Shown: positions 1-13,027 of the stretch, in pieces | How positions within the stretch are numbered: the first letter of the stretch is position 1 | Layout of the letters: every line of letters starts with the position of its first letter | Origin: Escherichia coli | GTDB taxonomy: Bacteria; Pseudomonadota; Gammaproteobacteria; Enterobacterales; Enterobacteriaceae | Reading direction: 5' to 3' (one strand) | Assembly: GCA_005397905.1 (NCBI GenBank) | Contig: GCA_005397905.1_4318.1 | DNA: 14,769 nt | Translations under genes and position numbers: made by a program | Notes under the pieces: model-generated | The model's input: the letters and a program-made list of their open reading frames with translations, nothing else | Databases searched by the model: none | Told to the model about the DNA's origin: nothing

Positions 1-193
1 TTACCTTTAATTGCTTTGCCATATTTGCCTTTTTGCCGAAGAAATCAAGGACAATTTCCAGCCTCGCGCGTAACCCTGCCCTTACCTCATCTTTTAAAAC
101 GTAGTAGCCTGATGGTCGTTTACGTTGCTTTTTGTCTTCGGTGCGGACTGTCCCGTTATTACCGTTAATGGTTCGCTTGTCTACTGCATTCAT
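1..193 (-). CDS. hypothetical protein, N-terminal fragment (gene continues beyond the left edge)
   Basis: Minus-strand ATG at 193-191 with GAGGTG Shine-Dalgarno 5 nt upstream (rc of 199-204); frame stays open to position 1 (64 codons, MNAVDKRTINGNNGTVRTEDKKQRKRPSGYY...). Not in the ORF track because it runs off the window. Confidence 0.45.
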   Translation of the reverse strand, partial: MNAVDKRTINGNNGTVRTEDKKQRKRPSGYYVLKDEVRAGLRARLEIVLDFFGKKANMAKQLKV

Positions 194-206
194 TTCATCA
201 CCTCAA

Positions 207-249
207 TAGCATTTTTTGTTAAAAGTCATTCCGATTTGATGGTAGTATT
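207..249 (+). promoter_or_regulatory. TAGCAC-type promoter-like element, variant TAGCAT-N3-TTGTTA, -10-like TAGTAT
   Basis: TAGCAT 207-212, TTGTTA 216-221, -10-like hexamer 243-248; upstream of the helicase ATG at 295. Its -10 overlaps the -10 of the divergent leftward promoter. Confidence 0.4.
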
Positions 250-275
250 GTACTCAATTAAACGCTACAAGACAA
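247..275 (-). promoter_or_regulatory. canonical sigma70-like promoter (TTGTCT-17-TACAAT) reading leftward
   Basis: On the minus strand: -35 TTGTCT (plus 275-270), 17-bp spacer, -10 TACAAT (plus 252-247); lies about 50 nt upstream of the leftward ATG at 193. Confidence 0.5.
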
Positions 276-294
276 TTTTTATAGGAATTTAGAT

Positions 295-2289
295 ATGTTG
301 CCTATCGAGAAGCTGGTTGCAAACTTCGATAAAGAAAGAATAAAACAGATTCAGAAAGATTATCAGTTTGGTGAGATAACTCCTTACGAATTCCAGTGCG
401 TAACATTTGATGCAATCGGAAAGGCTATTGGAAAGTACGAGGCACCATTTATCGCTGACCTTTCAGTATCTGCGGGTAAGACAATCATTCTCGCTATGAT
501 TGGAAAGCGTATGGAACAATTGGGATTGCCTTATATGGTTCTTTCTCGCCAGTCAGAAATTATCAGCCAGAACTCAGAGGAGCTTCGCAACTTCGGCATC
601 CGTAATAGCGTCTATTGCGCTGGCCTTAACGTTAAATCAGTTTACTACCCAACCATAGTTGCTAGCGAGGGTACGGCTGCTAATGGTTTGTTTAAGGGGC
701 TTGGTGACTATGTTCCGGCGGTTATCGCAATCGATGAATGTCACATGGTAGATCACATGGATATCGTGGAAGCTGAAGAGAACGAAGAAACATTTGAGCA
801 AATGAGCACAAAGAAAGGTGAGATGGTTTTCAAGGATGGAATTAACACTGGATTAATTGGCACTGGTCGCGCGCAGTACACACTAATCATTACCGAGATG
901 AAACGTCGCTGTCGTGAGAAGTATGGTCGTGAGCTAAGGATTTTTGGCCTTACTGGCAGCCCATATCGTAACAACGATCACATCGTAGTTAGTAACCCAA
1001 ACATCCGTGGATTCTGGCGGAAGACGGTAATTCAAGTACCAACCAATTACCTGGTTGACTTGGGGTTTGTTGTGCCTACTGTTTACGGCGAGGTAGGCGA
1101 TTTGGGTTACGATCTTAGTGAGTTTGTTCCCGATGGGAGCGATGGCGTGAAGGACTTTGGCAAGAAAGAAATGGATGCAATGGAAGAGAAAATCCACCAA
1201 AGCCAATCCATGACGCAAAAGATTATGCAATTTGCTGCAAAGTTCATGGATACTCGTAACGCGGCTCTTGTGACATGTTCTGGTAAGCGTCACTGCGAGG
1301 AAGCGGCAGCGGCGCTTCCTGATGGTGTGACATGGGCTATAGTAACTGACTCTACAGGTGAGAAAAAGCGCCGTGAGATTCTGGCTGATGCATATGAAGG
1401 TAAGTATAAATTCATATTTCAGATAGGTTGCCTTACAACCGGCGTGAACGTCCCGCCGTGGGACACATCAATCATTCTTCGCAAGGTTGGTAGCATCACG
1501 TTACTGATTCAGCTTTTGGGTCGAGGTATGCGAATTCTTAAGAAGAAGCATAAAGAAATGGGAATGATTAAGGAAGATCACGTGGTACTAGACTTCGCTG
1601 GCACCCTTGATGATATGGCGGAATTGTACTTTGACCCAATCATAGAGGAGGTGCAGGACCAGAAGTTTAAATCATCCCGCAAAGGCGGCGATGAGCCGAG
1701 GGTTTGTCCAGTATGCAGCTATGAGAACTCTCCGTTCGCCCGTCGATGCAATAACGTAATTGATGGAAAGCGTTGCGAACATTTTTTTACATTTCGCTTG
1801 TGTGAAGATATAGAGGACCCGCAGACAAAAGTTATTATTAAGAAAGGTTGTGGTGAGAAGAATGATATTGCTGCTAAAAACTGTCGATGCTGCGGCGAGA
1901 TGCTAATAGACCCGAACGCAAAGCTATCTGGGAAAATGTATCGTAAAGGCGACTGGTTGCGAGTCTATGACTTTAAGATTGGATTAACAAAGAATCAATC
2001 AGGGATTGTTGCCTCATACGAGGTCATGGCCCATAGTGGGGATAGGTTCCGAGCCTATGAGACGTTTTTTCCAGAGTCAGACCATCGCGTTTGCTCTGTA
2101 AAATGGAAATCATTTTGCTCTGCTCACATAGAGAACAGGACTGAGGCTTTTAGAATTGGCAGATTGCGTAATGCTAAGATGATTATGACTAATGCTCATC
2201 TTTTTCGAGCGCCATTAAGGATTACACACCGCAAGAACCAGAAGTCTCAAGATATTATCGCAAACAAATCATTTACTATGGAAGATTGA
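295..2289 (+). CDS. SF2 (DExH-box) DNA helicase with C-terminal Cys-rich zinc-ribbon-like region
   Basis: 664-aa ORF. Motif I SAGKT (DLSVSAGKTIILAMIG), motif II DECH (VIAIDECHMV), motif III-like LTGSP, motif VI QLLGRGMR; C-terminal Cys clusters CPVCSYEN...RRC and GCGEKNDIAAKNCRCCGE. Confidence 0.85.
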   Translation: MLPIEKLVANFDKERIKQIQKDYQFGEITPYEFQCVTFDAIGKAIGKYEAPFIADLSVSAGKTIILAMIGKRMEQLGLPYMVLSRQSEIISQNSEELRNFGIRNSVYCAGLNVKSVYYPTIVASEGTAANGLFKGLGDYVPAVIAIDECHMVDHMDIVEAEENEETFEQMSTKKGEMVFKDGINTGLIGTGRAQYTLIITEMKRRCREKYGRELRIFGLTGSPYRNNDHIVVSNPNIRGFWRKTVIQVPTNYLVDLGFVVPTVYGEVGDLGYDLSEFVPDGSDGVKDFGKKEMDAMEEKIHQSQSMTQKIMQFAAKFMDTRNAALVTCSGKRHCEEAAAALPDGVTWAIVTDSTGEKKRREILADAYEGKYKFIFQIGCLTTGVNVPPWDTSIILRKVGSITLLIQLLGRGMRILKKKHKEMGMIKEDHVVLDFAGTLDDMAELYFDPIIEEVQDQKFKSSRKGGDEPRVCPVCSYENSPFARRCNNVIDGKRCEHFFTFRLCEDIEDPQTKVIIKKGCGEKNDIAAKNCRCCGEMLIDPNAKLSGKMYRKGDWLRVYDFKIGLTKNQSGIVASYEVMAHSGDRFRAYETFFPESDHRVCSVKWKSFCSAHIENRTEAFRIGRLRNAKMIMTNAHLFRAPLRITHRKNQKSQDIIANKSFTMED

Positions 2290-2290
2290 C

Positions 2291-2710
2291 ATGCAAATTA
2301 CAGATAAAGAAGATTACATTGAGTTTTACCCAGGCCCGGTTAAGTCATGCCCTAAAGAGGATAACGAACAAATATTTTGCTCTGATTGGGTTAAGTATAA
2401 CTACCCGGAGATGGTGTTCTTCCACTGCGTGAATGAGGGCAAGAAGACCATTGGTCAAGCAAGAAAGGACCAGGCTAAGGGGCTTCTCAAAGGCGTATCA
2501 GACTGCATGTTTCTTATTCCTGAATCTATCCGAGGAAAATACCCTTTTGGGGCCATAGAGCTAAAGAGGGCTGGGAAGACTCAGGCAAGCACAGTCAGCG
2601 ATGAACAAAAGTCCTTCCTAAAAAGCGTAAGGGAATCAGGAGGATTCGCTGCTGTAGCTTACGGTCGCGAGGGTTTTCTGGCAGCATTCAAACAAATGAT
2701 TTCAAAATAG
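2291..2710 (+). CDS. VRR-NUC domain (PD-(D/E)xK) nuclease
   Basis: 139-aa ORF starting 2 nt after the helicase stop; ...SDCMFLIPE...GAIELKRAGKTQ... fits the D/E...ExK core of VRR-NUC. Helicase plus VRR-NUC adjacency is a common phage module. Confidence 0.7.
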   Translation: MQITDKEDYIEFYPGPVKSCPKEDNEQIFCSDWVKYNYPEMVFFHCVNEGKKTIGQARKDQAKGLLKGVSDCMFLIPESIRGKYPFGAIELKRAGKTQASTVSDEQKSFLKSVRESGGFAAVAYGREGFLAAFKQMISK

Positions 2711-2750
2711 CACGAATTGCTAAAGACGTATCGGTGAAGTGGTGTATTAT
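2708..2750 (+). promoter_or_regulatory. TAGCAC-type promoter-like element
   Basis: TAGCAC 2708-2713 (its TAG is the stop codon of the VRR-NUC gene), TTGCTA 2717-2722, 22-bp spacer, TATTAT 2745-2750. The -10 sits in the loop of a 7-bp dyad (2735-2741 / 2751-2757). Confidence 0.55.
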
Positions 2751-2783
2751 CACTTCATCGAAAACAAACTGGGAGATAAAAAA

Positions 2784-2984
2784 ATGAATACTATCTATAC
2801 TGCTAAATTCTACGAATCACGCAAAACTGGTTACAAATATGAATTAGGAATTACACCTGATTCTTATATTCTGGTTGATGTTGAAGATGAAAACTATGCA
2901 TTCGAAGTTAGTCCGACCTACAAAGATGATTTAGAGACTGTTAAAAACGCATTTGGCGAAAAATTTGATGAGGTATTAGAATAA
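2784..2984 (+). CDS. hypothetical protein (66 aa)
   Basis: ATG at 2784 preceded by GGGAGA; the track start at 2739 is GTG inside the promoter element, so the downstream ATG is preferred. Leader contains CATCGAAAAC. Confidence 0.55.
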   Translation: MNTIYTAKFYESRKTGYKYELGITPDSYILVDVEDENYAFEVSPTYKDDLETVKNAFGEKFDEVLE

Positions 2985-3202
2985 TGAAATTAACCTTTGA
3001 CAAGCAATGGGAAGTTTTTAAGCTAATGGCGGTTCATGAGCTAAAGAAATCTGGATATAACAAAAACCCGTTGGACTTAGCATTTTGCCTAGATATGAGT
3101 TTTGAGGAAGACTACTTGAACACTGATATTGAAACATGGCGCGACCGTATGATTGCTGATATCGAAGAAATGAAAAAAGATTGCCCGGAGGATTTCTTAT
3201 GA
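2984..3202 (+). CDS. hypothetical protein (72 aa)
   Basis: ATG overlaps the upstream stop (TAATG); GAGGT about 10 nt upstream. Confidence 0.5.
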   Translation: MKLTFDKQWEVFKLMAVHELKKSGYNKNPLDLAFCLDMSFEEDYLNTDIETWRDRMIADIEEMKKDCPEDFL

Positions 3203-3399
3203 TTACTGCTACATGTGTAAAAACGAACGGCTCGTTCACTTTATTTAATGAGTATGAATTCAAGATAGACCCGATAAATGACCAGGTTGAAATAGTTAGC
3301 GATGACGGATTTGCATGGAAGTTACATAATGAATTTGATGGTTACTACGGGTGTAATGATTCGAAAGGCAAGCATGTAAGTTTTCTTGTTTATGAGTAA
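3199..3399 (+). CDS. hypothetical protein (66 aa)
   Basis: ATG at 3199 overlaps the upstream stop (ATGA) with GGAGG 8 nt upstream; the track start at 3181 is TTG. Stop TAA directly precedes a TAGCAC element. Confidence 0.5.
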   Translation: MITATCVKTNGSFTLFNEYEFKIDPINDQVEIVSDDGFAWKLHNEFDGYYGCNDSKGKHVSFLVYE

Positions 3400-3400
3400 A

Positions 3401-3443
3401 TAGCACTTTTTGTTAAAACTCCAATCCATGGATTGATTATATT
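3401..3443 (+). promoter_or_regulatory. TAGCAC-type promoter-like element
   Basis: TAGCAC 3401-3406, TTGTTA 3410-3415, 22-bp spacer holding a perfect 12-bp palindrome AATCCATGGATT (3423-3434), TATATT 3438-3443. Confidence 0.55.
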
Positions 3444-3473
3444 AATCACACCAATAACGCAGAGGATTTAATA

Positions 3474-3599
3474 ATGAAGATTGTAGACAAAGAGATGTTT
3501 GAGATCGCGCAGGTTTATGCAAATGACGCAGTGAAAACTGGTTCTGATTATTGCTGGATGTGTGCTAAAGAATACCTGAAAATGGCTTACGGATTATGA
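3474..3599 (+). CDS. hypothetical small protein (41 aa)
   Basis: ATG 3474 with AGAGGA 7 nt upstream; MKIVDKEMFEIAQVYANDAVKTGSDYCWMCAKEYLKMAYGL; stop overlaps the next ATG (ATGA). Below the track length cutoff. Confidence 0.4.
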   Translation: MKIVDKEMFEIAQVYANDAVKTGSDYCWMCAKEYLKMAYGL

Positions 3600-3838
3600 T
3601 AGTTGAAACCGGACGTGACGCCGTATGGGCTCATTGTGGAGAGGCTGGTTTGCAGGATGATATTAAACAGATATCCCGCTTCTTTGACATAAAAGATATC
3701 AGCGTCGTGTTCAATGGTAAATTCTCTTACATGGATGAGAGACCAAGAAAATACGTAAGAGTTAAGCCTGGTGTAAGGATTGATGTTAACGAATTCCTTA
3801 AATCTCAGGGATGCAAATTTAAGATAACGAAGGCGTAA
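3596..3838 (+). CDS. hypothetical protein (80 aa)
   Basis: ATG-initiated ORF translationally coupled to the upstream small ORF. Confidence 0.5.
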   Translation: MIVETGRDAVWAHCGEAGLQDDIKQISRFFDIKDISVVFNGKFSYMDERPRKYVRVKPGVRIDVNEFLKSQGCKFKITKA

Positions 3839-3841
3839 ATT

Positions 3842-4093
3842 ATGTTGGGATTGGATTTTCAGCCAGAGCATTACGACTTAGTGCATGGACATGGTGGGAA
3901 GAAGTTTAGAGCGATACCTATTCCTGATTGGTTTCCTCCTGACTATGTTGATGTTAATGCGAAGACAAATGATGGCAGGTGGGTTCAGATTTACTACTCC
4001 CCAGCGTGTGGAAACCTTTGCATGACTGACCTTGATCAAAAATTAGCAATTAGTGCGGAATTGATAGACTACTGGTTGAAAGAAGTTGAATGA
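3842..4093 (+). CDS. hypothetical protein (83 aa)
   Basis: ATG 3842 with GAAGG upstream; same strand and operon context. Confidence 0.5.
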   Translation: MLGLDFQPEHYDLVHGHGGKKFRAIPIPDWFPPDYVDVNAKTNDGRWVQIYYSPACGNLCMTDLDQKLAISAELIDYWLKEVE

Positions 4094-4176: not shown

Positions 4177-5313
4177 ATGGCAACTGCAAAGATTACCAAC
4201 GAACAACTTCGTGAAGAACTGGCAAATGGCATGACAAACAAAGAAATCGCAGAGAAATACGGAATGAACATTCGCAATGTTGAATTGCGTCGTAGTAAAT
4301 TGGCAAAATCCGGCGAGCTTCATGGAAACCCTGGGATTAAGAAGCTAGTTCCTGACGGCTATTTGGTCAAAGGGACTTCAACGATGATTGATGCGGAAGG
4401 TAACGAGAAGATCCGGTGGGTTAAGACCTCAATTGATAATGAGCGCCTTGAGGTTCTTATGGAGCAGGCTCGAGAAGCATTTTGCTCTGAGTTGCCAAAG
4501 GCAGTTCCATCTGAATCACCTAATGTTAACTTTGACGATAACACGCTTGCGATGTATCCGGTTTTTGATTTACACATTGGAGCAATGGCACACAAACATG
4601 AGTGCGGCGAAAACTACGACACAGCGACAGCCGAGAAGGTAATGAATGGATTCTTTGATTACGCCGTAGATAAGGCCCCAAACTCAAAGAATGCTGTATT
4701 GGTATTGGGTGGCGATTTCCTACATTACGATTCCCTGGAGGCTAAAACCCCGGCCTCAGGCCATATCTTAGACTCTGACAGTCGTTACGCTAAGATTGTT
4801 TATGTTGCAATCCGTTCAGTACGACGTGCAATTTCTCGAATGATGGAAAAGCATCAAGTCATTGATATTAAAGTAATAAGCGGAAATCACGACGAGGCTG
4901 GAATGGTTTGGCTCCGCGCTGCACTTGCTGCATTTTATGAATATGAGCCTCGCGTAAATGTTGATGTTAGCCCAGCTGCAATGATGATGACCAGCTTTGG
5001 AACGACGCTTATTGGATACACTCACGGGCACCAAATGCGGAAAGCCGATACTCGACTAACTGTTATGGCAACTGATTTTCGTAAGTTATTTGGTCAAAGT
5101 GAGTATGTTTACACACATAGTGGCCACTGGCATTCGCAGAAGATTACAGAAACAAACTTGGGAATTGATGAGGTTCATGGGCAGCTGGGAAGTCCTGATG
5201 CGTACTCCGCAAATGGCGGCTGGCGCTCTCAACGTCAAGCGGCAGTTATTGTCTACCATAAAGAATTCGGTGAAGTTGGGCGATTCATTTGTCGCCCTAA
5301 AATGTTTAGCTAA
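4177..5313 (+). CDS. N-terminal helix-turn-helix domain fused to a calcineurin-like metallophosphoesterase (Mre11/SbcD-type fold)
   Basis: 378 aa. HTH-like MTNKEIAEKYGMNIRNVELRRSKL at the N-terminus; phosphoesterase motifs in order: DLH (VFDLHIGAMAH), GDxxxxD (VLGGDFLHYD), GNHDE, THGH, GHWH. AAGGA RBS upstream. Confidence 0.8.
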   Translation: MATAKITNEQLREELANGMTNKEIAEKYGMNIRNVELRRSKLAKSGELHGNPGIKKLVPDGYLVKGTSTMIDAEGNEKIRWVKTSIDNERLEVLMEQAREAFCSELPKAVPSESPNVNFDDNTLAMYPVFDLHIGAMAHKHECGENYDTATAEKVMNGFFDYAVDKAPNSKNAVLVLGGDFLHYDSLEAKTPASGHILDSDSRYAKIVYVAIRSVRRAISRMMEKHQVIDIKVISGNHDEAGMVWLRAALAAFYEYEPRVNVDVSPAAMMMTSFGTTLIGYTHGHQMRKADTRLTVMATDFRKLFGQSEYVYTHSGHWHSQKITETNLGIDEVHGQLGSPDAYSANGGWRSQRQAAVIVYHKEFGEVGRFICRPKMFS

Positions 5314-5425: not shown

Positions 5426-5980
5426 ATGACCAAATTGTTTATACTGAATGGGCCAGCTGGGGTCGGCAAAGATACAATTGCTGACGTCATGGTTAGTTCT
5501 GGCGCTTGCTGTGAGAAGGTTTCTTTTAAGTCACCCGTGTTTGATGTGGCTAAGGGTATGTTATCAAGCGATGAATTTGATTGGTTTATTGAAAACTACA
5601 ACAATAGAGACGAGAAAGATAAACCTCAGAAAATTCTCGGAGGTAAAACTATTCGAGAGTTTATGATATGGATTAGCGAATCAGTAATGAAACCTGTTTT
5701 TGGTAATGATGTCTTCGGCAGGAGATTGGCTAGTTCACTTGGTGATGGTTGCTATATTTGTGCTGACGGTGGATTTGCTAGCGAGATTGAGCCACTGATC
5801 GACGCTGGTGTTAAGGTCACGTTAATCAGGTTGCATAGGGCAGGGTACACATTTTATGGCGATAGTCGCTCATATATTCACGGGGTGTGTGAAAGAGAGA
5901 TTGATGTTCATGTTGTTGATGGTGATATTAATGGAACATCAGCATTGGTAAGGCACGTAATAAATAGCACGAATTGCTAA
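5426..5980 (+). CDS. deoxynucleoside monophosphate kinase-like P-loop kinase
   Basis: 184 aa; Walker A LNGPAGVGKDT; the N-terminal stretch KLFILNGPAGVGKDTIADVMVS resembles the N-terminus of the T4 gene 1 dNMP kinase as I recall it. GGAGA RBS. Protein ends ...NSTNC with the stop TAA supplied by a TTGCTAA element. Confidence 0.65.
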   Translation: MTKLFILNGPAGVGKDTIADVMVSSGACCEKVSFKSPVFDVAKGMLSSDEFDWFIENYNNRDEKDKPQKILGGKTIREFMIWISESVMKPVFGNDVFGRRLASSLGDGCYICADGGFASEIEPLIDAGVKVTLIRLHRAGYTFYGDSRSYIHGVCEREIDVHVVDGDINGTSALVRHVINSTNC

Positions 5981-7774: not shown

Positions 7775-9358
7775 TTACCCCAGCAGTCGCGGATTAATGT
7801 AAACCTTATCACCAATCAGGCAGGTGTAGTTTTTCTCATCAAGCATCGGAAGTAAATGGTCTTTAATCTTAGCCATTACGCCAGCCTGACCCTCAAACGG
7901 CCTAACCTTGCGTGCTGATTCATATAGTGAACGAAGTCCTACAACGCCCTTACTGTTCTTTCCTTGCTTAATCAATATGTCAATTAACTTGTTCATCTCT
8001 GCATTATCGCCAGCGTGACCAGCCGAACTAGCAGCAGAAAGGTAAGTTTTACTTTGTTCGTAAAACATGATAATTGCCTCTTGCATTGTCTCTAGGTCAA
8101 TTTGCCTTGACTTCAATGGCCGCTCATTATTCTTGCATGACCAGTTTCTTATTGTATGAAGAATTGCCGCCATTCGAATAACTTGCTTATCCATCTTGCC
8201 AAGAGCGCCACGCAGCATAGAGTGAGAGTATTTACCTCCATCCGCAAGGTGCGGCTCCATATCCTGGCGTGCTAGATTAAGATATCGCATAGCTGATTCT
8301 GAAATAGATAAATTAACTTGTGTTTCGTTCATAATGTTGTGAATCATTCTAAAGTAATCAGCTTTCAATTCGCCATCAACCGGTTCGTATGTCGACTCAC
8401 CTTTTTCATTAATAAAAACGCGATTTCCAATCATGGGGCGCTCCCTAACCAGCCAGAATCGCTCAGATACACCTATACCACGAGCACCAGCCTCCATAAT
8501 TGCATTGATTGTTTCATCCTGAGCTATTACAGCTATTGCGCCAAGCGCGGTAAACATCAAGTTGTTGTCAGCATTGGCGCGAGATATTGATATATTTCCA
8601 GAATCCCACGCCTTAAGAACTAACTCACTGTTTGTTTTCTTGCTGCCATCTCCGTAGGTCATCCCAAGCAATGAGTTAATTGCCGTTGCTTCGTCTGATA
8701 TTACCGCAAAGTTACCCTGTCGACTGTTTATTCGAGCCAGACCTTCAGGTGTTGTATCAGATACCGGAAAGACAATATCACACAGCTTTTCTAACTTCTC
8801 TTCTAAATCCTCTTTCTCCTCAAACAATGACGCCATTTCGGATGGCGACTTCTCCTGCTTCATCTCTTTCGCCAGCGCTGATAGCTTGGCCATAATCTTT
8901 TTTCTTTCACGCTTTCGCTGGTCATTGATTCGCTCAACCTCGGCTACCATTGGAGCTATTGCGAGTGAGTTAATGGCTGACTTACCAGTCGATGGTGGCT
9001 GGCTGGTTACTACGTACAGTGAGGTTGGTTGCTGCGTTCCGTGATACTCAACAGTAAAACGCCCTAGCATGGCAGCGGAAATACACCCCAGGAAATGCAT
9101 GTATGCGGAAGACTCTGGGAACTGAACAGATCGAGCGATATTGGATGAGAGTTTGCCAACAACATCAATATCATTTCCGAGTGAGATTACGGGATACTTG
9201 TCATTTGCAGCATCAATCTCCACTGGTGCTTTCCAGAATGATTGAGACTGGCGATAGCCATTTGCATTAATGGCGACTCGCAGTGGTGGGAGGTTGTCTG
9301 CGGCAGCAATTGCCATAACCTGTTCAACAGATAGTTTATCTTCGTTGAAATCAAACAT
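7775..9358 (-). CDS. P-loop NTPase of unknown function (527 aa), RecA/DnaB-like Walker A
   Basis: Walker A-like VVTSQPPSTGKSAI (about residues 115-128), Walker B-like FAVISDE (about 217-223), a highly charged predicted helix between them; GGAGAG RBS. N-terminal 43 aa and C-terminal 55 aa are homologous to the 181-aa ORF at 12482-13027. Confidence 0.8.
   Translation of the reverse strand: MFDFNEDKLSVEQVMAIAAADNLPPLRVAINANGYRQSQSFWKAPVEIDAANDKYPVISLGNDIDVVGKLSSNIARSVQFPESSAYMHFLGCISAAMLGRFTVEYHGTQQPTSLYVVTSQPPSTGKSAINSLAIAPMVAEVERINDQRKRERKKIMAKLSALAKEMKQEKSPSEMASLFEEKEDLEEKLEKLCDIVFPVSDTTPEGLARINSRQGNFAVISDEATAINSLLGMTYGDGSKKTNSELVLKAWDSGNISISRANADNNLMFTALGAIAVIAQDETINAIMEAGARGIGVSERFWLVRERPMIGNRVFINEKGESTYEPVDGELKADYFRMIHNIMNETQVNLSISESAMRYLNLARQDMEPHLADGGKYSHSMLRGALGKMDKQVIRMAAILHTIRNWSCKNNERPLKSRQIDLETMQEAIIMFYEQSKTYLSAASSAGHAGDNAEMNKLIDILIKQGKNSKGVVGLRSLYESARKVRPFEGQAGVMAKIKDHLLPMLDEKNYTCLIGDKVYINPRLLG
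9233..9262. repeat. 30-nt perfect inverted repeat, copy A (inside the NTPase gene)
   Basis: rc of 9233-9262 = AATGGCTATCGCCAGTCTCAATCATTCTGG, identical to 12584-12613, while flanking synonymous sites have diverged. Confidence 0.9.
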
Positions 9359-11960: not shown

Positions 11961-12482
11961 ATGTCAAATCGCATTCAACCAGTAAGCCTTGGTGATGTTA
12001 TCCGCTACATGGCTAAGCAGGCGCTTAAGGCCGACAATCGGACTTTCCATGTTCCAATCCACCTGATAGCTCGCCAGGTTTACGGGCTAACGTCTGATGA
12101 TATTGGTCGAATCAGCGCTGAGGATCTCGAGAGTGGCGGCAAATACAGTTTGGCAAAGTTGAAGGCTTCATATGTCTCTAACACAGTTGCCAGGATGCCA
12201 GAGATTCAGGAGGCGAACGTTCGGGCTAAGCTGTCAATCAAGGACGGAGACTTTGGGGATGATGTTGATGTTCGATGCGCATACATCACCTTGGTCGATG
12301 GGGCAATACAGACAGGAAAGAGAGTGATGGCCAACAACCAGGTAGCCGATAAGGCTGTAAGCGACTTTAAGGCTAGAATCCTCAAGCTGATGCCATCAGT
12401 GACTGAGTTTGAAGGTGATGAGATTACCGGAGCCATCAAAGCAATTAAGATGTACCAGGAAATGATTAAGGAGGCAAAATAA
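11961..12482 (+). CDS. hypothetical protein (173 aa), first gene behind the canonical promoter
   Basis: ATG with CAGGAG RBS; no recognisable motif. Confidence 0.65.
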   Translation: MSNRIQPVSLGDVIRYMAKQALKADNRTFHVPIHLIARQVYGLTSDDIGRISAEDLESGGKYSLAKLKASYVSNTVARMPEIQEANVRAKLSIKDGDFGDDVDVRCAYITLVDGAIQTGKRVMANNQVADKAVSDFKARILKLMPSVTEFEGDEITGAIKAIKMYQEMIKEAK

Positions 12483-13027
12483 TGGGGATGTTTGATTTTA
12501 ACGAAGATAAGCTAACTAATGATGAGATTATGAAGATTGCCATGCGGGATGGACTTCCTCCGCTACGGGTTGCAATCAACGCTAATGGCTATCGCCAGTC
12601 TCAATCATTCTGGTGTAGTGTTGAGGAGTTGCTCAGCGCAAAGCTCAACAGCAAGTCTGGCGTAGTTATGTGTAAGATTCACGGACAGAGCAGGAATGGC
12701 AAGGGGGTTGTCGGAATTCGATCAACATATGAAGCGCTGAGAAAGGTCAAGCCATTCGCCGGACTCAACGGAGTCATGCATGACCTGAAAAATAACATCC
12801 TGCCATCGTTACAGGACGCAGGAATCATCTGCTTAATCGGGGATAAGATTTACGTGCATCCATACATCGTTGGCATGCATGCGATAGAAGTTGAAGAGTG
12901 GTGCGACACCTGGGCTGTTGATGAGCATGCTAGTAGACTACCATACCACTTACGGTACGACGAAGATGAGGTAGAGAAGGCGATTGAGTTCTACCGGAAA
13001 GCTAAATCACTCCTGACCGGTAAATAG
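12482..13027 (+). CDS. hypothetical protein (181 aa), truncated paralog of the 527-aa NTPase lacking the P-loop core
   Basis: MFDFNEDKL...LPPLRVAINANGYRQSQSFW matches the NTPase N-terminus (20 consecutive residues identical); KGVVGIRSTYEALRKVKPF...CLIGDKIYVHP is about 55% identical to the NTPase C-terminus; no Walker motifs. AAGGAGG RBS; stop TAG is part of a TAGCAC element. Confidence 0.75.
   Translation: MGMFDFNEDKLTNDEIMKIAMRDGLPPLRVAINANGYRQSQSFWCSVEELLSAKLNSKSGVVMCKIHGQSRNGKGVVGIRSTYEALRKVKPFAGLNGVMHDLKNNILPSLQDAGIICLIGDKIYVHPYIVGMHAIEVEEWCDTWAVDEHASRLPYHLRYDEDEVEKAIEFYRKAKSLLTGK
12584..12613. repeat. 30-nt perfect inverted repeat, copy B (inside the paralog gene)
   Basis: AATGGCTATCGCCAGTCTCAATCATTCTGG at 12584-12613, in inverted orientation relative to 9233-9262. 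Confidence 0.9.

What the first reader, a model, noticed from the sequence alone, without database searches (positions are those of the whole stretch)
295..2710. Helicase with a Cys-rich C-terminal module, coupled to a VRR-NUC nuclease
The SF2 helicase ends in two Cys clusters resembling zinc ribbons, and the VRR-NUC gene starts 2 nt after its stop. This is a helicase-nuclease pair of the kind used for fork or junction processing, likely central to this phage's replication and recombination.
Basis: partly seen in the sequence, partly recalled or inferred. Interest (0 to 1): 0.3.

Follow-up and report, generated by a model that had tools for sequence, protein, structure and literature searches.

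The report
Phage T1-type RadD-like helicase and resolvase pair
This is the standard, already annotated helicase-plus-nuclease gene pair of T1/Rtp-like coliphages; the motor protein is a relative of the bacterial repair protein RadD with its two zinc ribbons, and the small nuclease is of the type shown to cut four-way DNA junctions, so the finding is real but ordinary.

Summary
ORF 295-2289 (664 aa) is an SF2 ATPase. ORF 2291-2710 (139 aa) is a stand-alone VRR-Nuc nuclease. One base separates the stop codon from the start codon (TGAcATG).

The window comes from an Rtp-like Drexlerviridae phage, and the two genes are orthologues of Rtp rtp53/rtp54 and T1 gp22/gp21.

The helicase is a distant homologue of E. 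coli RadD. RadD is the best hit in PDB by sequence (7e-31), in NCBIfam (7e-54, well below the equivalog cut-off) and by Foldseek (2e-33). Its eight invariant cysteines align one-to-one with the ligands of RadD's two zinc ribbons, ZF1 and ZF2. A RadD-like C-terminal domain of about 115 residues follows, so the protein does not end at the Cys clusters.

The nuclease keeps the catalytic residues E23, D71, E90 and K92. Its model superposes on 4QBL, a member of the dimeric junction-resolving VRR-Nuc group.

The pair is adjacent in 79 of 80 related viral contigs, usually overlapping or 1-2 nt apart. It persists in relatives whose helicase is only 24-43% identical.

The VRR-Nuc subfamily "T1p21" was named after the T1 orthologue and noted as helicase-linked in 2006. 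GenBank records already use "Holliday junction resolvase" and "RadD". Function is inferred, not shown. Novelty and interest are low.

The parts
194..294 (.). Divergent intergenic region between an rtp52-like HTH regulator gene (minus strand, ATG at 193-191, runs off the left end of the window) and the helicase gene. It contains an AGGA Shine-Dalgarno-like element upstream of the ATG at 295.
   Evidence: Minus-strand translation of 1-193 matches the Rtp rtp52 N-terminus. Sequence read. The consensus scan found no plus-strand promoter here.
295..2289 (+). Gene for a 664-aa RadD-family SF2 ATPase/translocase, orthologue of Rtp rtp53 and T1 gp22.
466..483 (+). Motif I / Walker A (VSAGKT, aa 58-63).
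   Evidence: G61 and K62 are invariant in the 54-sequence alignment and align with RadD GAGKS.
733..744 (+). Motif II / Walker B (DECH, aa 147-150).
   Evidence: D147 and E148 are invariant.
745..933 (+). Insertion in RecA-like domain 1 between motifs II and III (aa 151-213). It is specific to the phage clade, about 45 residues longer than in E. coli RadD, and of variable length among relatives.
   Evidence: Alignment A1. Modelled with pLDDT 93-97 as helices plus a beta-hairpin.
1510..1533 (+). Motif VI (QLLGRGMR, aa 406-413).
   Evidence: Q406, G409, R410 and R413 are invariant.
1705..1776 (+). Zinc ribbon 1 (C471-x2-C474 ... C485 ... C494). It aligns with RadD ZF1 ligands C384, C387, C411 and C425, and is 13 residues shorter than in RadD.
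   Evidence: Alignment A1. RadD zinc ligands from the crystal structure paper PMC9049331. Spacing statistics.
1801..1893 (+). Zinc ribbon 2 (C503-x15-C519 ... C530-x2-C533). It aligns with RadD ZF2 ligands C434, C437, C448 and C451. A 13-residue insertion sits inside the first knuckle. C532 is not conserved.
   Evidence: One viral locus and about ten more distant family members keep the RadD-like C-x2-C first knuckle.
1942..2286 (+). C-terminal domain (aa 550-664): a three-stranded sheet plus helices, RadD-CTD-like.
   Evidence: The NCBIfam RadD model is matched to position 569 of 573. BLASTP to RadD extends to residue 629 of the query and 560 of RadD. AF2 pLDDT is about 90 or higher over most of it. 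The ZF+CTD module occurs in only 96 clusters at 50% identity, nearly always at the C-terminus of helicases.
2280..2293 (+). Coupling junction: an SD-like GGAAGA (2280-2285) lies inside the helicase coding end, followed by TGA (2287-2289), C, then ATG (2291-2293).
   Evidence: Sequence. No promoter-like or terminator-like site lies between the genes. Relatives show -4, -1, +1 or +2 nt junctions. The function of the SD-like element is inferred.
2291..2710 (+). Gene for a 139-aa stand-alone VRR-Nuc nuclease of the T1p21 subfamily, orthologue of Rtp rtp54 and T1 gp21 (53% identical to T1 gp21).
2357..2566 (+). Span holding the PD-(D/E)xK active-site residues: E23 (2357-2359), D71 (2501-2503), E90 (2558-2560) and K92 (2564-2566). 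The conserved Q106 lies at 2606-2608, just beyond this span.
   Evidence: All are invariant in the 28-sequence alignment A3. Codons were read.

Best explanation
The two genes form one co-transcribed, probably translationally coupled module of a T1/Rtp-like (Drexlerviridae) phage.

**Gene 1** encodes a RadD-family SF2 ATPase. Its layout is two RecA-like domains, then two tandem Zn(Cys)4 ribbons, then a RadD-like C-terminal domain. **Gene 2** encodes a small stand-alone VRR-Nuc (T1p21-type) PD-(D/E)xK nuclease that most likely acts as a homodimer.

**Most likely mechanism.** T1-like phages carry their own recombination set (RecE/exonuclease VIII-like, Erf-like annealase, SSB). They replicate into concatemers that contain branches such as D-loops, Holliday junctions and reversed forks. 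The RadD-like motor would bind such branch points, possibly through the zinc ribbons and C-terminal domain, and use ATP to move or remodel them. The VRR-Nuc dimer would then cut the junction symmetrically, leaving unbranched DNA for further replication and headful packaging.

**Shown here:** homology, motif and ligand conservation, predicted folds, and conserved tight gene adjacency.

**Inferred:** metal binding, branch migration, junction cleavage, and any physical or functional cooperation between the two proteins.
For: **Origin.** The finding region is 88-91% identical in nucleotides to Rtp-like phages. The genes correspond to rtp53/rtp54, which are described as similar to T1 gp22/gp21.

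**RadD relationship.**
- PDB phmmer hit 6jde, E=7e-31.
- BLASTP to MG1655 RadD, E=4e-41, 22% identity over nearly the full length.
- NCBIfam heli_RadD_YejH is the best family, E=6.9e-54.
- The AF2 model has pLDDT 89.7. Its top eight Foldseek PDB hits are all RadD chains, E=2e-33 to 3e-28 over about 670 columns. The next fold scores 2e-13.

**Zinc ligands.** The eight Cys align one-to-one with the zinc ligands seen in the RadD-ADP crystal structure. They are conserved in all 82 related ORFs.

**VRR-Nuc.**
- Pfam score is above the gathering threshold.
- E23, D71, E90, K92 and Q106 are invariant.
- The model (pLDDT 84.5) superposes on 4QBL with TM 0.64/0.72 and rmsd 2.3-2.9 A.
- Stand-alone bacterial and viral VRR-Nuc proteins are dimers that cleave four-way junctions (PMC4103454).

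**Synteny.** VRR-Nuc follows the helicase directly in 79 of 80 IMG/VR loci. Junctions are -4 nt (29 loci), -1 (15), +2 (15) and +1 (6 of the 82 sequences scanned, which include the window and Rtp). The pair persists in Salmonella phage Lumpael, Vibrio phages and an uncultured contig; Brucella phage Tb has a 141-aa ORF overlapping the helicase stop by 4 nt that gave no Pfam hit. Helicase identity in these relatives is 24-43%.

**Context.** Recombination genes (exonuclease VIII, Erf, SSB) and replication genes (primase, DUF3987 helicase) lie nearby in Rtp and in relatives.

**Prior description.** The T1p21 VRR-Nuc subfamily was described as helicase-linked (Iyer 2006, as cited in PMC9635880).
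Against: - There are no experimental data for any phage member of either family. No paper was found in two literature searches.
- E. coli RadD shows no autonomous helicase or branch-migration activity and is strictly RecA-dependent (PMC8887467). The motor's substrate and partner in a phage with a RecA-independent Erf/RecE system are therefore unknown.
- The phage protein scores far below the RadD equivalog cut-off (183 bits against 720).
- Only one of the three Arg residues of RadD's SSB-binding pocket is retained (R145 = R215). R21 and R49 correspond to G46 and E74.
- In three relatives a 232-467 bp insert separates the two genes; in phage DTL it is an HNH endonuclease gene. Strict translational coupling is therefore dispensable.
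- Some relatives also carry a RusA-like resolvase (Lumpael). That questions a unique resolvase role for VRR-Nuc.
Confidence: 0.7

Rival explanations
1. The RadD-like protein is mainly a replication factor, such as an origin or fork unwinding helicase or a fork-restart remodeller, not a recombination branch-migration motor. The VRR-Nuc would then trim flaps or forks in a FAN1-like, monomeric way rather than resolve Holliday junctions.
For: The gene sits beside a primase and a regulator in Rtp. RadD binds synthetic forks and is genetically tied to stalled-fork processing (PMC8887467). Eukaryotic FAN1 uses the same domain to cut 5' flaps (PMC4103454).
Against: The phage already encodes a DUF3987 (D5/primase-associated type) helicase at 7775-9358 that better fits a replicative role. 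The nuclease is a minimal 139-aa stand-alone protein. Its best structural match is the dimeric 4QBL (TM 0.72), while FAN1 matches cover only 55-73 columns.
Confidence: 0.15
2. The two genes are neighbours only because phage genomes are tightly packed. They act independently, for example the nuclease in host-DNA breakdown or packaging and the ATPase elsewhere.
For: HNH or other inserts of 232-467 bp split the pair in three relatives without apparent harm. No fusion of the two domains was found among the long family members examined. E. coli radD has no nuclease neighbour.
Against: Adjacency in the same order, with overlapping or 1-2 nt junctions, survives down to about 24-37% helicase identity. 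It is seen across Escherichia, Klebsiella, Salmonella and Vibrio phages, and probably Brucella phage Tb, whose downstream ORF has no Pfam hit. The VRR-Nuc T1p21 subfamily as a whole is helicase-linked.
Confidence: 0.1
3. The module is an anti-defence or anti-host device. It could be an anti-restriction ATPase (DarB-like or HsdR-like) with a nuclease that attacks host DNA or defence elements.
For: Weak similarity to type I restriction HsdR motors. One distant relative is labelled 'DarB-like antirestriction' (phiHSIC) and others are labelled hsdR.
Against: Those similarities are generic to the SF2 core and are 20 orders of magnitude weaker than the RadD match. The family-specific ZF1-ZF2-CTD module is RadD's. 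The genomic context is replication and recombination genes.
Confidence: 0.05

Closest known systems
Phage T1 gp22 (ATP-dependent helicase) + gp21 (T1p21 VRR-Nuc), and Rtp rtp53 + rtp54
   Same: Direct orthologues with the same order and junction type. The finding region is 88% identical in nucleotides to Rtp. Identity to T1 is 50% for the helicase and 53% for the nuclease. The eight-Cys pattern is the same. GenBank AY216660.1 already labels the T1 pair 'DNA helicase | Holliday junction resolvase'.
   Different: Nothing of substance. There is sequence divergence, and a +1 nt spacer here compared with a 4-nt overlap in T1.
E. coli RadD (YejH), PDB 7R7J / 6JDE / 8H5Y
   Same: SF2 motifs, the domain order RD1-RD2-ZF1-ZF2-CTD, all eight zinc-ligand cysteines, and a best match by a wide margin in sequence and fold.
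   Different: - 22% identity, and 183 bits against the 720-bit equivalog cut-off.
- A 27-aa N-terminal extension.
- An insertion of about 45 aa between motifs II and III.
- ZF1 is 13 aa shorter, and ZF2's first knuckle is C-x15-C instead of C-x2-C.
- Two of the three SSB-pocket arginines are absent.
- E. coli radD has no nuclease neighbour.
- RadD's biochemical partner is RecA, whereas the phage brings Erf/RecE-type recombination genes.
Stand-alone prokaryotic/viral VRR-Nuc proteins psNUC, stNUC, saNUC (PDB 4QBL, 4QBN, 4QBO; Pennell et al. 2014)
   Same: Same Pfam family, same minimal size, same catalytic residues and same fold (TM 0.64-0.72 to 4QBL). That group is dimeric and cleaves four-way junctions.
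   Different: Only 23-24% identity to 4QBL. The window protein has an N-terminal beta-hairpin (residues 2-13). Neither dimerisation nor activity was tested.
RuvAB-RuvC resolvasome (E. coli), and T5 D10 helicase with D14 RusA-like resolvase
   Same: The same proposed logic: an ATP-driven branch-migration motor teamed with a junction-cutting dimer.
   Different: No homology. T5 D10 gives BLASTP E=0.69 against the window helicase. RuvB is an AAA+ hexamer, and RuvC and RusA have different folds. This is an analogy only.
FAN1 (eukaryotic and Pseudomonas)
   Same: Carries a VRR-Nuc catalytic domain.
   Different: FAN1 is a large multidomain monomer that cuts 5' flaps and not Holliday junctions. Structural matches to the window protein are partial, 55-73 columns with E>0.1.

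Membership tests
RadD family (NCBIfam NF053632 heli_RadD_YejH; E. coli RadD) | SF2 helicase core with Q motif and motifs I, II (DExH), III, V and VI | tested here: met
   Q34, GKT 61-63, DECH 147-150, TGS 220-222, LTTG 380-383 and QxxGRxxR 406-413 all align with RadD.
RadD family (NCBIfam NF053632 heli_RadD_YejH; E. coli RadD) | Two tandem zinc ribbons ZF1 and ZF2, each with four Cys ligands, after RecA-like domain 2 | tested here: met
   C471, C474, C485 and C494 align column-for-column with RadD C384, C387, C411 and C425. C503, C519, C530 and C533 align with C434, C437, C448 and C451. They are conserved in 82 of 82 related ORFs. Metal binding itself was not measured.
RadD family (NCBIfam NF053632 heli_RadD_YejH; E. 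coli RadD) | RadD-type C-terminal domain | tested here: met
   The NCBIfam RadD model is matched through position 569 of 573. Foldseek alignments to RadD chains span about 660-680 columns. Overall rmsd is high (about 19 A), so the relative domain placement differs or is not reliably predicted.
RadD family (NCBIfam NF053632 heli_RadD_YejH; E. coli RadD) | Score at or above the curated equivalog cut-off (720 bits), i.e. same function as E. coli RadD | tested here: not met
   183.1 bits. The protein is a homologue, not an equivalog, so it is filed as 'RadD-like'.
RadD family (NCBIfam NF053632 heli_RadD_YejH; E. coli RadD) | SSB C-terminal-tail pocket framed by R21, R49 and R145 | tested here: not met
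   The alignment gives G46 (K47 adjacent), E74 and R215. Only R145/R215 is conserved. A different SSB contact cannot be excluded.
RadD family (NCBIfam NF053632 heli_RadD_YejH; E. coli RadD) | RecA-dependent acceleration of strand exchange, with DNA-independent ATPase | not testable with these tools
   Biochemical property (PMC8887467).
VRR-Nuc (Pfam PF08774), T1p21 subfamily | Pfam model matched above the gathering score | tested here: met
   33.9 bits against 23.8, E=3.7e-8.
VRR-Nuc (Pfam PF08774), T1p21 subfamily | PD-(D/E)xK catalytic set (Glu on helix 1, Asp, Glu-x-Lys) | tested here: met
   E23, D71, E90 and K92, plus Q106, are invariant in 28 homologues.
VRR-Nuc (Pfam PF08774), T1p21 subfamily | Restriction-endonuclease-like alpha-beta-beta-beta-alpha-beta core fold | tested here: met
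   The AF2 model has H23-37, E42-45, E72-75, E86-92, H104-115 and E119-124. Foldseek to 4QBL gives TM 0.64/0.72 and rmsd 2.3-2.9 A.
VRR-Nuc (Pfam PF08774), T1p21 subfamily | Orthology to T1 gp21 and linkage to a helicase gene | tested here: met
   53% identity to T1 gp21, E=2e-50. Adjacent to the helicase in 79 of 80 loci. Subfamily definition from PMC9635880 citing Iyer 2006.
VRR-Nuc (Pfam PF08774), T1p21 subfamily | Homodimer that cleaves four-way junctions | not testable with these tools
   Shown for psNUC, stNUC and saNUC only.

The most novel reading that the evidence does not exclude
The phage RadD-like motor and the VRR-Nuc dimer form a physical, RecA-independent 'resolvasome'. The elements specific to the phage clade would dock the nuclease or replace RecA dependence. 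These elements are the roughly 45-aa insertion in RecA-like domain 1, the 13-aa loop inside ZF2, and the N-terminal extension. If so, the phage protein would be an autonomous branch-migration enzyme. It would also be the first tractable system for finding out what RadD-family motors actually do on DNA.
Probability: 0.15. Interest if true: 0.45.

Novelty: already known. Interest (0 to 1): 0.12.

Why it matters
It matters little as a discovery. The pair is a core module in a large phage clade: the helicase matches 1,797 phage records in tblastn, 1,511 of them at 80% or more coverage. Public records already annotate it as helicase, RadD, VRR-NUC or Holliday junction resolvase.

The one useful refinement is the explicit residue-level mapping of the T1-type phage helicase onto the RadD structure. 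That covers both zinc ribbons and the C-terminal domain, plus a list of the features specific to the phage clade.

The molecular role of E. coli RadD is still debated, because it shows no unwinding alone. The abundant phage homologues that come with a dedicated junction nuclease could therefore be a convenient experimental route into RadD-family mechanism and into how T1-like phages debranch their concatemers.

Tried and rejected
- **T5 D10 branch-migration helicase as a relative: rejected.** BLASTP E=0.69. T5 pairs D10 with a RusA-like D14, so this is only an analogy.
- **Rosetta-stone fusions of the helicase with VRR-Nuc: none found.** The 927-928-aa family members are long because of inteins, and the other long members examined show only helicase-core and zinc-ribbon domains.
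- **Conservation of RadD's SSB-binding pocket: not supported.** Only one of three Arg residues is kept.
- **Promoter and terminator scan of 1-3300.** Counts were not above shuffled controls. Nothing lies between the two genes, and no plus-strand promoter was called upstream of 295.
- **The search for related loci with the 54-sequence alignment failed.** There was no conserved stretch to search with. The run was repeated with the 21-sequence alignment.
- **Literature searches found nothing.** 'RadD-like' with phage, and T1 gp22, returned no functional study. One paper lists 'putative DNA repair helicase RadD' as a Tunavirinae marker gene.
- **Pfam missed several divergent downstream ORFs in distant relatives**. 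For the two compared by profile-profile alignment, VRR-Nuc homology was recovered at 95% probability, E about 1e-8.
- **Minus-strand ORFs inside the helicase gene** (753-974 and 934-1293) were treated as spurious. They have no support, and the plus-strand frame is conserved.
Full report
**What is in the sequence.** Two plus-strand ORFs fill the reported interval. The first is 295-2289 (ATG, 664 aa) and the second is 2291-2710 (ATG, 139 aa). The first ends with TGA at 2287-2289. A single C follows, and the second begins with ATG at 2291. An SD-like GGAAGA lies five bases upstream, inside the end of the first gene. No promoter-like or terminator-like site lies between them. Upstream, the minus strand of 1-193 encodes the N-terminus of an rtp52-like HTH regulator. 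Positions 194-294 are therefore a divergent intergenic region.

**Where the window comes from.** Megablast places the interval in Rtp-like Drexlerviridae coliphages. It is 90.6% identical to SU57 and 88.1% identical to Rtp at 100% coverage. The whole window is about 85% identical to Rtp-like phages over roughly 65-76% of its length. In Rtp the two genes are rtp53, 'ATP-dependent helicase, similar to gp22 of T1', and rtp54, 'VRR-NUC domain-containing protein, similar to gp21 of T1'. Their neighbours include a primase, exonuclease VIII, an Erf-like annealase, SSB, an SbcD-like exonuclease and a DUF3987 helicase.

**The helicase is a RadD homologue.**
- Pfam sees only Helicase_C, and PHROG 16 'DNA helicase' scores 4e-78.
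- A sequence search of PDB gives E. coli RadD as the only strong hit (6jde, E=7e-31). The next hits are above 9e-4.
- BLASTP against MG1655 RadD gives E=4e-41 and 22% identity from residue 28 to 629.
- NCBIfam's best model is heli_RadD_YejH (E=6.9e-54), matched to model position 569 of 573. The score is 183 bits against an equivalog cut-off of 720. The protein is therefore RadD-like, not a RadD orthologue.
- An AlphaFold2 model built on a 54-sequence alignment has mean pLDDT 89.7.
- The top eight Foldseek hits in PDB are all RadD chains (E=2e-33 to 3e-28, about 660-680 aligned columns). The next fold, HsdR, scores 2e-13. The high global rmsd (about 19 A) shows that the domains match but their relative placement does not.

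**The Cys clusters are RadD's two zinc ribbons.** The RadD-ADP crystal structure shows two ribbons. ZF1 uses C384, C387, C411 and C425, and ZF2 uses C434, C437, C448 and C451. A C437A mutant is non-functional in vivo (PMC9049331).

In the MAFFT alignment these eight positions align column-for-column with C471, C474, C485, C494 and C503, C519, C530, C533 of the window protein. All eight are invariant across 20 phage relatives plus RadD. They are invariant or at least 90% conserved in the 54-sequence set. The ninth local cysteine, C532, is not conserved.

The Cys density is 9 in 63 residues, far above the rest of the protein (P=4e-7). All 82 related ORFs carry the eight-Cys pattern. In 81 of them it reads C-x2-C-x10-C-x8/9-C-x8-C-x15-C-x10-C-x2-C, and RadD reads 2, 23, 13, 8, 2, 10, 2.

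Relative to RadD, the phage clade has a shorter ZF1 and a 13-residue loop inside the first knuckle of ZF2. It also has a 27-residue N-terminal extension and an insertion of about 45 residues between motifs II and III, which is modelled confidently.

Residues about 550-664 form a further folded domain that aligns with RadD's C-terminal domain.

A full-library search with residues 456-664 found this ZF+CTD module in only 96 clusters at 50% identity. In the full-length hits it sits at the C-terminus of proteins of roughly 500-930 aa.

**The nuclease.**
- Pfam VRR_NUC is matched above threshold (33.9 bits against 23.8).
- In 28 homologues E23, D71, E90, K92 and Q106 are invariant. These are the PD-(D/E)xK set in the VRR-Nuc arrangement.
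- The AlphaFold2 model (pLDDT 84.5) has the expected alpha-beta-beta-beta-alpha-beta core.
- Its best PDB matches are the six chains of 4QBL (TM 0.62-0.64 by query length and 0.70-0.72 by target length, rmsd 2.3-2.9 A), followed by 4QBN. FAN1, Hjc and RecU are weak or partial matches.
- Pennell et al. showed that such stand-alone bacterial and viral VRR-Nuc proteins resemble Holliday-junction resolvases, are dimers in solution and cleave four-way junctions. FAN1 is monomeric and cuts flaps (PMC4103454).

**The pairing is conserved.** A scan of viral contigs with helicase patterns found 486 relatives, of which 80 were kept. In 79 of those 80, a VRR-Nuc ORF identified by a family HMM follows the helicase directly on the same strand. 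The one exception is a contig that ends inside the helicase gene.

Junctions are typical of coupled genes. Counted over the 82 sequences scanned (80 loci plus the window and Rtp), they are -4 nt (29), -1 (15), +2 (15) and +1 (6). Larger apparent overlaps come from the mechanical choice of start codon.

Three loci have a 232-467 bp insert between the genes. In phage DTL it is an annotated HNH endonuclease.

tblastn finds the helicase in 1,797 phage records, 1,511 of them at 80% or more coverage. Hosts include Klebsiella, Vibrio, Escherichia, Salmonella and Brucella. Four distant relatives were checked:
- Salmonella phage Lumpael: 43% helicase identity, annotated VRR-NUC one base after the stop.
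- Vibrio phage 82E33.2: annotated 'putative DNA repair helicase RadD' followed by 'putative VRR-NUC domain-containing protein'.
- Vibrio phage 1.113.A and an uncultured contig: the downstream overlapping ORF is VRR-Nuc-like by profile-profile comparison, at 95% probability.
- Brucella phage Tb: a 141-aa ORF overlaps the helicase stop by 4 nt; Pfam gave no hit for it.

E. coli radD has no such neighbour; it lies between rsuA and rplY.

**Mechanism.** The best-supported reading is a branched-DNA processing module. An ATP-driven RadD-like motor would act on junctions, D-loops or forks generated by the phage's own RecE/Erf/SSB recombination-dependent replication. A dimeric VRR-Nuc would resolve them before packaging. 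Only homology, conserved ligands and catalytic residues, predicted folds and synteny are shown here; the activities are inferred.

Three points temper the reading. E. coli RadD has never shown independent unwinding and works only with RecA (PMC8887467). Two of the three arginines of its SSB pocket are absent in the phage protein. Some relatives also encode a RusA-like resolvase.

**Comparison with what is known, and novelty.**
- Locus L043 is phage T1 itself (100% identity to NC_005833/AY216660). Its record labels the pair 'DNA helicase | Holliday junction resolvase'. The window nuclease is 53% identical to T1 gp21.
- One of the VRR-Nuc subfamilies defined by Iyer et al. in 2006 is called T1p21, and it is characterised by being encoded next to helicases (PMC9635880).
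- Other records already use 'Holliday junction branch migration helicase' and 'RadD'. A 2026 typing paper lists 'putative DNA repair helicase RadD' as a Tunavirinae marker gene.
- T5's characterised D10 helicase is unrelated (BLASTP E=0.69).

The finding is therefore real and correctly interpreted, but it describes an already known module. The modest addition here is the residue-level mapping onto the RadD structure and the list of differences specific to the phage clade.

Noticed in passing
window 12482-13027 (+) versus 7775-9358 (-): The 181-aa ORF looks like a 'mini' paralogue of the DUF3987 helicase. Its first 50 residues are 68% identical to that protein's N-terminus. Its residues 37-131 are 40% identical to the helicase's C-terminal residues 432-526. 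It lacks the ATPase core in between. PHROG 7327 and PHROG 2373 overlap in the same way.
   Followed up: partly
L006 (phage DTL) 6996-7441; L007 (IME542) 4538-4769; L055 6924-7390: In three relatives the otherwise contiguous helicase/VRR-Nuc junction is split by a 232-467 bp insert. In DTL it is annotated as an HNH (homing) endonuclease. This suggests the junction is a target for mobile endonuclease genes.
   Followed up: partly
proteins P0167 (928 aa) and P0187 (927 aa), metagenomic members of the same helicase family: These long family members carry an intein (Pfam Intein_splicing and PT-HINT) inserted in RecA-like domain 1 of the helicase.
   Followed up: partly
window 5426-5980 (+): A 184-aa gene resembling a P-loop or dNMP kinase (PHROG 139, 1e-39; no Pfam hit) lies between the SbcD-like exonuclease and the lysis cassette. 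Rtp's annotation table shows only a 57-aa ORF in that interval. SU57 and JulesPiccard list an 'ATPase' or 'P-loop NTPase'.
   Followed up: no
window 4177-5313 (+): An SbcD/Mre11-like 'DNA repair exonuclease' (PHROG 704, 1e-154; Pfam Metallophos only 19 bits, below cut-off) has no SbcC/Rad50-like partner gene anywhere in the window.
   Followed up: no
window 1-294: The minus strand of 1-193 encodes the N-terminus of an rtp52-like HTH regulator that diverges from the helicase gene. The 101-bp region between them should hold divergent promoters, but the sigma-70 consensus scan called only one weak minus-strand site (275-247).
   Followed up: partly
window 2739-4093 (+): A run of five small ORFs (72-83 aa) downstream of the VRR-Nuc gene has no Pfam match. 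The corresponding Rtp genes rtp55-rtp60 are all annotated as hypothetical.
   Followed up: no
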